61,734 nucleotides of DNA from Bdellovibrionales bacterium. GTDB lineage: Bacteria > Bdellovibrionota_G > JALEGL01 > JAGRMV01. The notes beneath the pieces are model-generated. The model was given only the letters and a program-made list of their open reading frames with translations. It was not told where the DNA came from and did not search any database. The position numbers and the translations under genes are program-made. Shown here piece after piece: positions 14,267 through 17,810 of the stretch (its first letter is position 1; each line of letters begins with the position of its first letter). The DNA lies in contig JAGRAZ010000002.1 of assembly GCA_020434345.1 (NCBI GenBank), positions 1 through 61,734 of the forward strand, written 5' to 3'.

Positions 14267-15895
14267 ATTTCTAAAGAACTTTTTGGCAAAACGCGTGGAT
14301 TAAGCAAAAAACAAGAAAATGATTTGCTCAAATTGTTTCGTAAGAAAATCCCCACGAAAAAAATTATCACATGGGAATTAAGTAAACACTTATGTGAGTT
14401 ATCCTTTCAACTCGATCGAAATGTTGGAATCATGGTTGATCGACGAGGCTACATTGAAGCTGTTTCTGTAGGCACCAATTTTGACATTGATTTCCCCCTC
14501 CTTACACGTTTGCGAGCCACTTCAACCCGTTTATCAGGCTATCGACTGCTTTTTACAAAACTCAATCAAAAAGGTTTCTCAAAAAAGGATAGGAACATAC
14601 TTTATGACCGACGACTAGATGCCATTGGTTGCATTGAAGTTGAAGACAGAGGACAACCCGGTTTTTTTCATCTTGGCCACCTTAAGCCTGAGGCTTCCGG
14701 TTTTGACTCCATCGAGGAAACAACGTTTGACTCCGCCTTGGACATAGACTTTCCTTTTGATGAATGGGTGGAAAACCTTGAAGATGAGTTTCAAAAAATT
14801 ATTCAAGCTGCGTATGTTTTTGATACAAAAACAAAAGCGATTCTCTGCTACTTGATTACACCTGAAAACAAAGCAAATATTGATGATGAAATTGAAGAGA
14901 CGCTTGAACTAGCCAAAACAGCAGGCTTGTCTATTGTTGGCAAGATTGCGCAAGTACGGCCACAACCTGATCCTAAATATTTTTATGGTAAGGGCAAAGC
15001 CAAGGACTTGGTTCAAGACGTTATCTCTAAAAATGCGGACATGATACTTTTTCATCAGGACTTAACAGCCACCCAATTTCGAATTGTAGGGGATCACACT
15101 GAAGTTCCTATCATTGACAGAACACAACTCATATTAGATATCTTTGCGCAACGAGCAAAAACACACGAAGGGAAACTTCAAGTTGAACTTGCTCAACTTC
15201 AATACACCCTGCCCCGCCTTCGCGAGAAAAACACCCAAATGTCTCGATTGGTCGGTGGCATTGGTGGAAGAGGCCCCGGTGAAACCAAACTTGAAATCCA
15301 TAGAAGACGTGCGCGTGAAAAAGTTGCCAAGCTCCAAAGAGAGATTGATAAAATCAAAGAGACTCGAATGATCAAGAGACAAGCGAGAAACAAAAACAAA
15401 GTACCTATTGTTTCTATTGTTGGCTATACCAACGCGGGAAAATCTACGCTTCTTAATACGTTAACACAATCCAAAGCGCTCGCTGAAGATAAGCTATTTG
15501 CCACCCTTGATCCCTTTTCTAAACGACTTCGTTTTCCTCAGGATCAAGAAATTATTCTTACGGATACAGTAGGATTTATTCGTGATCTACCCCCAGCGCT
15601 CATGGATGCATTTGCAGCAACGCTTGAGGAAATTCGTGACGCTTCACTTATTTTACACCTTATCGATGCATCCAATCCTCATTGTGAAAAGCATATTCAA
15701 ATTGTAGAGCAAATTTTGCATAAGCTTGGTTCATCAGACATCCCTCAAATCAAGGTATTTAATAAAATGGACAATGTAGACCAGCAGATATTGTTCGAAT
15801 TAATACAACGTCACGATGGGATAGGTATCAGTGCTCTTCAACGAAAAACCCTTGGACCACTTATAGAGTACATGCAGGAATGTCTAAAAAACTAA
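14267..15895 (+). CDS. hflX: GTPase HflX, long N-terminal form; probable non-canonical ATT start at 14267
   Basis: IDRTQLILDIFAQRA, GGIGGRGPGETKLE, G1 GYTNAGKS, LFATLD, DTVGF, NKMD. The frame is open from 14258, with SD AGGAG at 14256-14260 6 nt before ATT. The ORF track start (TTG 14324) truncates a conserved-looking N-terminus. Confidence 0.93.
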   Translation: MSKELFGKTRGLSKKQENDLLKLFRKKIPTKKIITWELSKHLCELSFQLDRNVGIMVDRRGYIEAVSVGTNFDIDFPLLTRLRATSTRLSGYRLLFTKLNQKGFSKKDRNILYDRRLDAIGCIEVEDRGQPGFFHLGHLKPEASGFDSIEETTFDSALDIDFPFDEWVENLEDEFQKIIQAAYVFDTKTKAILCYLITPENKANIDDEIEETLELAKTAGLSIVGKIAQVRPQPDPKYFYGKGKAKDLVQDVISKNADMILFHQDLTATQFRIVGDHTEVPIIDRTQLILDIFAQRAKTHEGKLQVELAQLQYTLPRLREKNTQMSRLVGGIGGRGPGETKLEIHRRRAREKVAKLQREIDKIKETRMIKRQARNKNKVPIVSIVGYTNAGKSTLLNTLTQSKALAEDKLFATLDPFSKRLRFPQDQEIILTDTVGFIRDLPPALMDAFAATLEEIRDASLILHLIDASNPHCEKHIQIVEQILHKLGSSDIPQIKVFNKMDNVDQQILFELIQRHDGIGISALQRKTLGPLIEYMQECLKN

Positions 15896-16650
15896 AATTG
15901 AATTTTTGTTTCAGATCTTTCAGTTTTCTTCTTAAAATAGCGTGATTCTTTGAATTTATTCTTATAAAAACATGTTAACAAATTCATTTTTGGGTTGTTT
16001 GTATTGATATTTGAAAAAGCACAGTTACATTCGTGCTTTTCATCCATCTCGAACTGAAACATCATAAAAAACGGACCATAATTTGCGGGAATGCGTATCA
16101 TACTTTGGTATTGAACATTTAAATCGGATTCAACCTCGATTTCATCATTTTCAATGGTTGCAACCTCTTCATCACCTGTATAGATTTCCTTCACTTCAGT
16201 TGCTTCTACAAACTTATCCTTAAAAGACTGCTCATCTTGATCAGCAATTTCTGAAGGAAGTGCATAAAATGTAAAAGGATATTGATAAATATTTCGAACA
16301 GGATTGGCATCTTTGGCGTCTGATTCAAGTGTGAGCTCAACCTCTCCGGGGATCGACATCAAAATGTCGTTATGTTTCCATTTATTTTCCACATCGGTTA
16401 GCAGCTGTATAAATACTTCATTTTTTGAATTTTCTTGGTCTTTGTAATACCTGTAACTATCAAAAACATAGCTTACAAATTTTTCTCTTGATTGAGGTCG
16501 AATCCTTTCAGCCAAACTCATTGTAAAAGTAACGTTTGTACTCTTACTCCAAATGGTACTTCGTTCACAGATATCTTGGTCTGTATAAGACCAAGCAGTT
16601 TGATAGATTCCAAACACTAGCAATATAATGATTATTTTTTTCATATTCAT
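15892..16650 (-). CDS. Secreted hypothetical protein, C...CxC...C family member 3
   Basis: Signal peptide MKKIIIILLVFGIYQTAWS; DIC near the mature N-terminus, ECNC and LTC near the C-terminus; acidic central segment. Confidence 0.75.
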   Translation of the reverse strand: MNMKKIIIILLVFGIYQTAWSYTDQDICERSTIWSKSTNVTFTMSLAERIRPQSREKFVSYVFDSYRYYKDQENSKNEVFIQLLTDVENKWKHNDILMSIPGEVELTLESDAKDANPVRNIYQYPFTFYALPSEIADQDEQSFKDKFVEATEVKEIYTGDEEVATIENDEIEVESDLNVQYQSMIRIPANYGPFFMMFQFEMDEKHECNCAFSNINTNNPKMNLLTCFYKNKFKESRYFKKKTERSETKIQF

Positions 16651-16653
16651 TTC

Positions 16654-17202
16654 CTATTTACATTCTACTTTTTCTTTAATGGATGCGGATTTTTGAATAA
16701 ATTCTTTCACTGGTGCGATATAAAAATTACACTCTGCTTCCCCATACTCATCATCACCCTCAAAAAACTGACACAAGCAAGAAATATCTTTTCTATCATT
16801 ATCTTGCATTTGAAAGACATACATTAATCCCGGTATGTATTCCCCACTGAAGTACACATTTTGACTAGAAGTTTGCCCAGTAACAGTAAACAAAATTCCT
16901 TTTGTTCTTTTAAGATACTTAATAAAGGACGTATTATCTTCAACATATACAAGATGATTAACTTCAGGTGACCCATAGTAGCTTTGAAATGTGGTTATAT
17001 ATCGATTTGTATTGTACTTATTACCTTCATCGTCAGTAAATCTGCAATCACTTTTATTTAAATCAACATTGGCTGGTTTAAAAAACGCTGTATTCACAAT
17101 AGGCATATTCAATCCATATTGCTCTAAACAAGCTGATGAATAGTTCATTTGCGCGTTGCTTGATCCTGCCATTAGTAAAAATAAAACAAAAAACTTCTTC
17201 AT
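16654..17202 (-). CDS. Secreted hypothetical protein, C...CxC...C family member 2
   Basis: Signal peptide MKKFFVLFLLMAGSSNA; SAC, SCLC and AEC plus two extra Cys; TAATG coupling with the upstream gene. Confidence 0.75.
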   Translation of the reverse strand: MKKFFVLFLLMAGSSNAQMNYSSACLEQYGLNMPIVNTAFFKPANVDLNKSDCRFTDDEGNKYNTNRYITTFQSYYGSPEVNHLVYVEDNTSFIKYLKRTKGILFTVTGQTSSQNVYFSGEYIPGLMYVFQMQDNDRKDISCLCQFFEGDDEYGEAECNFYIAPVKEFIQKSASIKEKVECK

Positions 17203-17810
17203 TACTCAATTCCTTCTTTGGATGTGAATATTTGACTGTTACATAGCAATTCGCTGTCAGTATAATTGAATGATCTGCTCATGGACTGTTCATCCATTGT
17301 ACCATCCACCATAAGACATTCACATGATACCCCCTCATACAAAAAGGCAAAAGATAAGTTCGTCGGTAGATTTTCATAAGCATAAAAGGGCTGTGAAAAA
17401 CCGTAGAGCACATCCTCTTCGTGGTTAAGTGTGCTTGGAACAATATAGTTATCAACATCAATGGAAAGCAGCCTTGCATCTACACGTTCGAATCCTTTTG
17501 GCGTAACATAATCTGTGTAATCTTGATTAAATGGAATTAAATAGTAAAAAGCTCTTTTTTGAATATCTTGAGTTGTTAGCGGCTCAATGGAACGTATAAC
17601 CGACAAAAGACCATTGATGGGTTCAAATGTTGTTCGCGTTGTCCAACCGGGTACAATCTTTTCAGGTTCTCGAAATGACAACGAAATAAGGCCCACATGC
17701 TTTGTATCAAATAGTGATTTGCAAACCTCTGCATCGATCGTGTTTGCGCTAGAAGCTTTTGAAAACCCCAACACCATCCAGACAGCCAATATGAATTGAA
17801 AATATTTCAT
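17202..17810 (-). CDS. Secreted hypothetical protein, C...CxC...C family member 1
   Basis: Signal peptide MKYFQFILAVWMVLGFSKASSA; EVC, SCEC and LLC. Confidence 0.75.
   Translation of the reverse strand: MKYFQFILAVWMVLGFSKASSANTIDAEVCKSLFDTKHVGLISLSFREPEKIVPGWTTRTTFEPINGLLSVIRSIEPLTTQDIQKRAFYYLIPFNQDYTDYVTPKGFERVDARLLSIDVDNYIVPSTLNHEEDVLYGFSQPFYAYENLPTNLSFAFLYEGVSCECLMVDGTMDEQSMSRSFNYTDSELLCNSQIFTSKEGIE

What the first reader, a model, noticed from the sequence alone, without database searches (positions are those of the whole stretch)
15892..17810. Three tandem secreted proteins sharing a C...CxC...C pattern: candidate new paralog family
Seen: all three have Sec signal peptides, one Cys 7-8 residues into the mature chain (EVC, SAC, DIC), an aromatic beta-strand followed by CxC (LYEGVSCEC, RKDISCLC, EKHECNC), and a final Cys 15-25 residues later. 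Otherwise they are highly diverged. They form a tight operon (TAATG coupling, 3-nt gap) between dnaK and hflX, and the last stop overlaps the hflX stop. Inference: a disulfide-stapled shared fold that diversified after duplication, such as a heteromeric surface or secreted complex, prey-interaction factors, or immunity-like proteins.
Basis: partly seen in the sequence, partly recalled or inferred. Interest (0 to 1): 0.65.

Follow-up and report, generated by a model that had tools for sequence, protein, structure and literature searches.

The report
Orphan secreted four-cysteine protein triplet
Three neighbouring genes in an uncultured Bdellovibrionota bacterium encode exported proteins that share only a fixed four-cysteine framework; the framework recurs in a fourth gene and in a sister genus, so this is a real but tiny, very fast-evolving family whose fold and function are unknown.

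Summary
Three co-oriented minus-strand genes lie between convergent hflX and dnaK: A 17202-17810, B 16654-17202, C 15892-16650. They have their own promoter-like site, a TAATG overlap, a 3-nt gap, and a last stop overlapping the hflX stop. Each encodes a Sec-type signal peptide, a Cys 7-8 residues into the mature chain, an aromatic beta-hairpin ending in CxC, and a further Cys 14-25 residues later.

The pattern is not chance. It occurs in a fourth gene elsewhere in the genome, and twice in one two-domain protein at the same spot next to hflX in a sister genus. No other long ORF in either genome has it.

Sequence methods do not prove that A, B and C are paralogs. With Cys masked no similarity remains, and only A links significantly to the sister-genus protein. 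AlphaFold2 failed (pLDDT 30 and 37), so the shared-fold test could not be done.

All members are orphans in 5.8 and 1.84 billion-protein libraries and match no Pfam, NCBIfam, PHROG, PADLOC or PDB entry. Other relatives have hflX and dnaK directly adjacent, so the cassette is a lineage-specific insertion.

Most likely these are DsbA/VKOR-oxidised, disulfide-stapled soluble envelope proteins. Their function is unknown and interest is modest. This scan noted similar orphan triplets in other Bdellovibrionota genomes, but not this family.

The parts
17867..17882 (-). Terminator-like hairpin plus T-run just after the dnaK stop; separates dnaK from the cassette
   Evidence: stem GGCTTTCACGTGGGCC, tail CTTTTTATAA; sequence read
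17820..17848 (-). Sigma-70-like promoter (TTGACT, 17 nt, TG-TAGATT) 9 nt upstream of the ATG of A; implies a separate transcription unit with a very short or absent leader
   Evidence: 9 of 12 matches, TG extension; consensus match only, and the number of promoter-like sites in the region is not above shuffles
17202..17810 (-). Gene A, 202 aa. Signal peptide residues 1-22 (cleavage SSA|N). Cys 30, 163, 165, 190. Acidic, pI 4.55
   Evidence: Orphan. Linked to the G004 protein
17241..17357 (-). Framework core of A: beta-hairpin LSFAFLY-EG-VSCECLMV, then C4 (Cys 190)
   Evidence: The AF2 models place strands at mature residues 130-136 and 139-146, and this region is among the only residues with pLDDT of 50 or more
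16654..17202 (-). Gene B, 182 aa. Start overlaps the stop of A (TAATG), with an AAGGA Shine-Dalgarno site 7 nt upstream. Signal peptide residues 1-17 (SNA|Q). Cys 25, 53, 142, 144, 158, 181
   Evidence: Orphan. Identical DNA on three other metagenome contigs
16729..16827 (-). Framework core of B: LMYVFQMQ-DNDRKD-ISCLCQFF, then Cys 158
15892..16650 (-). Gene C, 252 aa (250 aa from the second ATG at 16644, which has the AGGAA Shine-Dalgarno site). Signal peptide ends AWS|Y. Cys 28, 208, 210, 227. Acidic middle and basic tail. Its stop overlaps the hflX stop
   Evidence: Orphan
15970..16065 (-). Framework core of C: MMFQFEM-DEKH-ECNCAFS, then Cys 227
14324..15895 (+). hflX, the convergent flank; anchor gene used for synteny
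17924..19822 (-). dnaK, the upstream flank on the same strand; the other synteny anchor

Best explanation
A, B and C are real, co-transcribed genes for small, acidic, soluble proteins exported by Sec. They belong to a tiny, lineage-restricted and extremely fast-diverging family that arose by tandem duplication at the junction between convergent dnaK and hflX.

The family is defined by these features, in order:
- a signal peptide;
- Cys1 at mature position +7 or +8, on a short N-terminal helix;
- a variable body of 87-180 residues;
- a beta-hairpin of the form [LMV]x[FY]x[FYM]x[YMIT], polar turn, xCxC;
- Cys4 a further 8-25 residues on.

Inferred mechanism (not shown): after export, the cell's DsbA-like and VKOR-DsbA machinery oxidises the four framework Cys into two intramolecular disulfides. 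These pin the N-terminal helix and the C-terminal segment onto the central hairpin. That gives a stable scaffold whose variable middle is free to diverge as a binding surface for envelope or external partners. The three genes would then be diversified variants made together, and need not form an obligate complex.
For: Real genes:
- ORFs of 182-252 codons lie in DNA of 32-38% GC.
- Codon log-likelihood is positive only in the annotated frames.
- B and C have Shine-Dalgarno sites, and the gene junctions are tight.
- A separate promoter-like site and a dnaK terminator-like hairpin precede the cassette.

Framework is not chance:
- Shuffle null 0.70 per genome, P(>=4) = 0.0045.
- The regex is exclusive to A-D among long ORFs of G000, and to the two-domain protein in the 2.135 Mb of G004 that were fetched and scanned (29 contigs).

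Independent recurrence at the syntenic site:
- G004 carries a 352-aa secreted protein convergent with hflX that holds the framework twice.
- A model trained on G004 alone picks A as rank 1 of 4152 frames, E = 0.0035. Adding D improves this to E = 2.5e-4.
- With Cys included, Smith-Waterman Z is 5.2 for A vs G4d2, 3.0 for B vs D and 3.0 for G4d1 vs G4d2.

Insertion:
- dnaK and hflX are directly convergent in G003, G005, G011 and a marine metagenome relative.

Disulfides are plausible:
- Every member has an even number of Cys in its mature chain (4, 6, 4, 4, 8).
- The genome has a DsbA-like protein and a VKOR-DsbA fusion.
- The signal peptides are Sec-type with no twin-arginine motif (read from the sequence).

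Weak structural hint:
- In the AF2 run with the family alignment, the only residues with pLDDT of 50 or more are the helix with C1, the hairpin with CxC and the strand with C4.
Against: - No sequence statistic supports homology of B or C with the others. Smith-Waterman with Cys masked gives mean Z = -0.05.
- Leave-one-out HMMs rank B 20th and C 173rd.
- hhalign probabilities are below 1%, and phmmer finds nothing.
- The motif definition was refined after seeing the data.
- The AF2 models are unusable (pLDDT 30 and 37.5), so neither a shared fold nor the Cys pairing is shown.
- The pLDDT peaks may only reflect the aligned columns.
- No orthologs exist for a dN/dS estimate.
- The function is entirely inferred.
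Confidence: 0.6

Rival explanations
1. Mixed origin. A, D and the G004 protein form one small family, while B and/or C are unrelated secreted orphans that happen to carry a similar Cys spacing. Disulfide-bonded exported proteins often have an N-terminal and a C-terminal Cys.
For: Only A is recovered by models trained without it. B links only weakly to D (Z = 3.0, phmmer E = 0.02 in a six-sequence set). C links to nothing.
Against: The background rate of the full regex is about 0-3 per genome, mostly junk frames. Two further chance matches in the two genes immediately next to A, with the same +7/+8 position of Cys1 and the same alternating aromatic strand before CxC, is very unlikely: roughly (1.5e-3)^2, my own estimate from those counts. 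The best local hhalign match of the B+D profile against C is exactly the hairpin-CxC segment.
Confidence: 0.2
2. The CxC is a functional redox or cross-linking motif, not a structural staple. Either it forms a strained intramotif disulfide that exchanges with substrates, as in CsgC, or it forms intermolecular disulfides that join A, B and C into oligomers, as in BslA.
For: CsgC is a small periplasmic Ig-like protein with an invariant, redox-active CxC (PMC3173608). BslA is a ~180-aa secreted protein whose C-terminal CxC drives disulfide-linked dimers and tetramers (10.1101/138099). D has CGC, the sequence used as a protein disulfide isomerase mimic (cited). The translational coupling of A and B would suit a stoichiometric complex.
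Against: The middle residue of CxC is not conserved (E, L, N, G, A, E). Two further Cys are conserved at fixed places, which CsgC and BslA lack. There is no match to the Pfam models of those families. In this family the CxC sits inside a predicted strand, and is neither in a loop nor in a flexible tail (low confidence).
Confidence: 0.12
3. The four Cys bind a metal (a Zn or Cu site of Cys4 type) in the envelope.
For: Four invariant Cys including a CxC; CxC motifs occur in copper chaperones (papers listed).
Against: The signal peptides are Sec-type with no twin-arginine motif. The envelope is oxidising and has DsbA-like and VKOR-DsbA proteins. B has an extra Cys pair, which is typical of disulfides. 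No His or Met is conserved nearby.
Confidence: 0.05

Closest known systems
CsgC (curli accessory protein; Pfam Tafi-CsgC; Taylor et al. 2011, PMC3173608)
   Same: A small, soluble, Sec-exported periplasmic beta-rich protein with an invariant CxC at the edge of a strand.
   Different: CsgC is about 110 aa. Its CxC lies near the N-terminus (BC loop to strand C) and forms its own redox-active disulfide. It has no conserved Cys1 or Cys4 and is encoded in the curli operon. There is no Pfam match here and no curli genes lie nearby.
BslA (Bacillus subtilis biofilm surface-layer protein; Arnaouteli et al., 10.1101/138099)
   Same: A secreted protein of about 180 aa with a CxC close to the C-terminus, and with a paralog (YweA) of diverged function.
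   Different: The CxC of BslA sits in a flexible 11-residue tail, provides the only Cys in the protein, and makes intermolecular bonds. BslA comes from a Gram-positive organism. There is no sequence match.
Other orphan tandem arrays of secreted Cys-framework paralogs seen in uncultured Bdellovibrionota
   Same: Three neighbouring exported proteins sharing a four-Cys pattern, no relatives anywhere, and a location in a lineage-specific insertion next to housekeeping genes.
   Different: They come from other genomes. No shared sequence words with this family were found. The architectures described there differ (helical stalk and basic tail; murB remnants).

Membership tests
Proposed new family (C1 ... 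hairpin-CxC ... C4 exported domain) | N-terminal Sec signal peptide with the first Cys 7-8 residues after the predicted cleavage site | tested here: met
   A +8, B +8, C +7, D +8, G004 protein +7. Read from the sequences. Cleavage sites were predicted by eye only.
Proposed new family (C1 ... hairpin-CxC ... C4 exported domain) | Alternating aromatic strand, polar turn, xCxC, then a Cys 8-25 residues later | tested here: met
   All six domains align on it. The regex is exclusive to them among long ORFs of G000 and G004.
Proposed new family (C1 ... hairpin-CxC ... C4 exported domain) | Detectable sequence homology between members | tested here: inconclusive
   A against G004: HMM E = 0.0035 to 2.5e-4, rank 1. 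B and C are not recovered.
Proposed new family (C1 ... hairpin-CxC ... C4 exported domain) | Common fold with equivalent disulfide pairing | tested here: inconclusive
   AF2 pLDDT 30.3 (single sequence) and 37.5 (six-row alignment). Foldseek against PDB gave no hit with E of 0.001 or better.
CsgC (Pfam Tafi-CsgC) | Match to the family profile; Ig-like domain of about 110 aa with an N-proximal CxC; curli operon context | tested here: not met
   No Pfam hit at E up to 1. The CxC is C-proximal. The neighbours are dnaK and hflX.
BslA/YweA (Pfam BslA) | Match to the family profile; CxC in a C-terminal tail as the only Cys | tested here: not met
   No Pfam hit. There are four to six Cys, with CxC inside a predicted strand.
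Bacterial lipoproteins | Lipobox L-[AS]-[GA]-C at the end of the signal peptide | tested here: not met
   No Cys at position +1. The first Cys is at +7 or +8.
Known anti-phage defence or phage protein families | Match to PADLOC or PHROG profiles | tested here: not met
   PADLOC gave 0 hits. The best PHROG hit had E = 0.033 on the signal peptide region.

The most novel reading that the evidence does not exclude
The C1 ... hairpin-CxC ... C4 module is a previously undescribed protein fold or disulfide framework. It would be confined to two genera of a deep, barely sampled Bdellovibrionota-like phylum with 17 species genomes. It would be evolving so fast, presumably under diversifying selection from prey, host or phage partners, that only the disulfide scaffold survives. 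The three co-translated genes would then form a diversified recognition set.
Probability: 0.25. Interest if true: 0.5.

Novelty: new member of a known kind. Interest (0 to 1): 0.3.

Why it matters
Lineage-specific, exported orphan families hold much of the unexplained biology of predatory and host-associated Bdellovibrionota. This case shows that a family can be recognised from a cysteine framework plus synteny when every sequence method fails. It also defines six domains, the smallest about 100 aa, as targets for structure determination. The practical value is limited until a fold, a partner or an expression pattern is known.

Tried and rejected
Family and structure libraries, all negative:
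- Pfam, NCBIfam, PHROG and PADLOC scans.
- PDB sequence searches with the family profile and with B alone.

Large protein libraries:
- A, B and C found only themselves among 5.8 billion proteins.
- D found only itself among 1.84 billion representatives.

Genome searches:
- A was searched in 41 related genomes; D and the G004 protein were searched across all 17 species genomes of the phylum. None gave a credible hit outside its own genome.
- The family profiles were searched across the 15 genomes of the order and five genomes of the family, and found no new members.
- 2.135 Mb of G004 (29 contigs) was fetched and regex-scanned. Only the two-domain protein matched.

Homology tests, none significant for B or C:
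- Pairwise BLASTP, phmmer, Smith-Waterman Z-scores and hhalign.
- An HMM built from A-D does not detect the G004 protein (-1.5 bits).

Structure:
- AF2 on the single sequence and with the six-row alignment both failed.
- Foldseek on the better model was meaningless: best TM 0.2, no hit with E of 0.001 or better.

Other ideas rejected:
- D is functionally tied to its neighbouring type IV pilin gene. Rejected because 19 such pilin genes are scattered in the genome and no other has a family member beside it.
- Mobile-element or duplication scars. No meaningful direct or inverted repeats and no Rfam hit.
- Population variation for dN/dS. The three other metagenome contigs are 100% identical.
- Same-genus genome G001. 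The dnaK contig ends inside dnaK, and hflX there is followed by a helicase-like gene, so the locus cannot be compared.

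Full report
**What is there**

Three ORFs lie head to tail on the minus strand: A 17202-17810 (202 aa), B 16654-17202 (182 aa) and C 15892-16650 (252 aa).

Read directly from the sequence:
- The TAA stop of A overlaps the ATG of B (TAATG).
- The TAG stop of B is followed by GAA and then the ATG of C. A second ATG two codons later has the better AGGAA Shine-Dalgarno site.
- The TAG stop of C (15892-15894) overlaps the TAA stop of the convergent hflX gene (15893-15895).

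Upstream, dnaK ends at 17924 and is followed by a terminator-like hairpin (17867-17882). A promoter-like TTGACT-17-TAGATT site (17820-17848) lies 9 nt before the ATG of A. The cassette therefore looks like its own transcription unit, possibly with a nearly leaderless first gene.

Codon-usage log-likelihood is positive only in the annotated frames of A, B and C. B and C fall in the lowest 1-2% of GC among long ORFs, but their GC3 is unremarkable. The low GC therefore reflects amino-acid composition, with no sign of foreign origin. All three proteins are acidic (pI 4.55-5.09).

**The pattern**

Cys positions are A 30/163/165/190, B 25/53/142/144/158/181 and C 28/208/210/227.

Each protein has a classical Sec-type N-terminus (MKYFQFILAVWMVLGFSKASSA|N, MKKFFVLFLLMAGSSNA|Q, M(NM)KKIIIILLVFGIYQTAWS|Y). 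I judged these by eye because no signal-peptide predictor was available. There is no lipobox and no twin-arginine motif. The first Cys falls at mature position +8, +8 and +7.

Before the CxC there is an alternating aromatic strand and a polar turn:
- A: LSFAFLY-EG-VSCEC
- B: LMYVFQMQ-DNDRKD-ISCLC
- C: MMFQFEM-DEKH-ECNC

The next Cys follows after 25, 14 and 17 residues. B has one extra Cys pair.

**More than chance, and more members**

Scanning the whole genome (a MAG of 1.82 Mb, 144 contigs, 88.6% complete) with the Cys pattern found a fourth gene, D, at G000:C114:3402-4034 on the minus strand (211 aa, Cys 27/177/179/197). Its hairpin is LEFAYPIM-DQENVE-IECGC.

- Shuffling the mature parts of all ORFs that have 4-6 Cys gives 0.70 matches per genome. 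P(>=4) = 0.0045.
- A regex for the strand plus CxC plus C matches only A, B, C and D among ORFs of 130 aa or more.

The synteny result carries more weight. In the sister genus genome G004 (HflX 71% identical), the gene convergent with hflX encodes a 352-aa secreted protein that carries the framework twice:
- NVCQKY...VSFKMITDGQLCACKVDNRKLVC
- NLCEYV...LEFHFYYQGLWCECSKEKRVEKIQC

A Ser/Pro-rich linker joins the two copies, and Cys1 is at mature position +7. I fetched 2.135 Mb of G004 (29 contigs) and scanned it. No other credible member exists there.

**Is it homology?**

Sequence methods are almost blind here.

Negative results:
- BLASTP finds nothing among A, B and C.
- Smith-Waterman Z-scores with Cys masked average -0.05.
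- An HMM built from A-D scores the G004 protein at -1.5 bits.
- hhalign probabilities between sub-profiles are below 1%. Even so, its best local matches fall on the hairpin-CxC segment.

Positive signals:
- With Cys included, Z is 5.2 for A vs G4 domain 2, 3.0 for B vs D and 3.0 for the two G4 domains.
- A motif HMM trained only on the two G004 domains ranks A first among 4152 frames of this genome (E = 0.0035). Adding D gives E = 2.5e-4.
- In leave-one-out tests B ranks 20th and C 173rd.

The link between A and G004 is therefore statistically supported. Membership of B and C rests on the framework and on adjacency. Given a background of roughly 0-3 regex matches per genome, adjacency makes chance very unlikely. 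It does not amount to proof of common descent.

**Structure**

AlphaFold2 on mature A alone gave pLDDT 30.3. With the six-domain alignment it gave 37.5.

In the second run the only residues with pLDDT of 50 or more are these four elements:
- the N-terminal helix carrying C1 (residues 4-11);
- the two hairpin strands (130-136 and 140-148, with CxC);
- the strand carrying C4 (164-169).

This fits a helix plus three-stranded core, but it may only reflect the aligned columns. Foldseek against PDB gave nothing (best TM 0.2).

**Distribution**

- A, B and C are orphans among 5.8 billion proteins, and D among 1.84 billion representatives.
- No library matches: Pfam, NCBIfam, PHROG, PADLOC and PDB sequences.
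- The GTDB phylum holds only 17 species genomes. NCBI labels relatives as Bdellovibrionota or Deltaproteobacteria MAGs. None but G004 has a member.
- dnaK and hflX are directly convergent, 40-60 bp apart, in G003, G005, G011 and a marine metagenome relative with 67% HflX identity. G006 has an unrelated 1020-aa gene there.
- The cassette is thus a lineage-specific insertion at a convergent-gene junction, shared in some form by genera g1 and g4.
- The same-genus genome G001 is too fragmented at this locus to compare.
- Three contigs from other metagenomes carry 100% identical DNA. The strain recurs, but there is no variation to analyse.

**Mechanism (inferred)**

- Every member has an even number of Cys.
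- The genome encodes a DsbA-like protein (CPFC) and a VKOR-DsbA fusion (CPAC), and has no DsbB.
- Export is by Sec.

The most economical reading is two intramolecular disulfides that staple the N-terminal helix and the C-terminal strand to the central hairpin. This would stabilise a small scaffold whose middle varies freely, from 87 to 180 residues. The smallest domain is about 100 aa.

Rivals:
- A redox-active or cross-linking CxC, as in CsgC (PMC3173608) or BslA (10.1101/138099).
- A metal site.
- Mixed origin of the three genes.

No partner gene is consistently adjacent. The neighbours are dnaK and hflX here, a PhyH dioxygenase and a 900-aa orphan in G004, and a pilin-like gene next to D (one of 19 scattered copies). 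Genomic context therefore gives no functional lead.

**Verdict**

This is a new, tiny orphan family of an ordinary kind, namely fast-evolving exported Cys-framework paralog arrays. Earlier notes of this scan describe similar arrays in other Bdellovibrionota genomes, though none shares sequence with this one. Interest is modest.

Noticed in passing
G000 contig C114:3402-4034 (minus strand); locus L018 1498-2133: Fourth member (D) of the Cys-framework family. It lies outside the window, 90 bp upstream of a type IV pilin-like gene. It is an orphan among 1.84 billion representative proteins.
   Followed up: yes
G000, 19 places (for example C114:2593-3309, C131:3302-3901, C88:761-1354, C72:5240-5869): A genome of 1.8 Mb carries about 19 scattered type IV pilin-like genes of about 190-340 aa (GFTLIELMIV N-termini, two C-terminal Cys). 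Most stand alone, away from pilus assembly genes.
   Followed up: partly
G000 contig C114:5043-5450 and 5488-5820 (minus strand): Two adjacent small secreted proteins (135 and 110 aa), each with six Cys at nearly matching positions (33/37/45/60/70/78 versus 34/38/44/56/66/74). They look like another tandem Cys-framework paralog pair.
   Followed up: no
window 15892-15895: The stops of convergent hflX and gene C overlap (CTAA). No terminator can fit between them, so the two transcripts must run into each other's coding region. A weak plus-strand terminator-like hairpin lies inside gene C at 16354-16369.
   Followed up: partly
dnaK-hflX junction in relatives (L007 1179-5971; L010 3006-6068): This convergent junction is a repeated landing site for lineage-specific genes. 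G004 holds a 900-aa secreted orphan, a PhyH-type dioxygenase and the two-domain family protein. G006 holds a 1020-aa gene that resembles an ATPase/TPR regulator. Four other relatives have nothing there.
   Followed up: partly
G000 contigs C89:34590-35750 and C144:16052-17191: The oxidative folding machinery seems to be a VKOR-DsbA fusion (CPAC) plus a DsbA-like protein (CPFC) with a long N-terminal extension. No DsbB was found in the 88.6%-complete genome.
   Followed up: partly
window 15444-17707 (L032), 16315-17388 (L033) and 16315-17379 (L034): Contigs from three other metagenomes (JGI 3300010350, JGI 3300009775, ENA ERZ27264001) are 100% identical in DNA to the cassette. The same strain therefore occurs in several samples.
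   Followed up: yes
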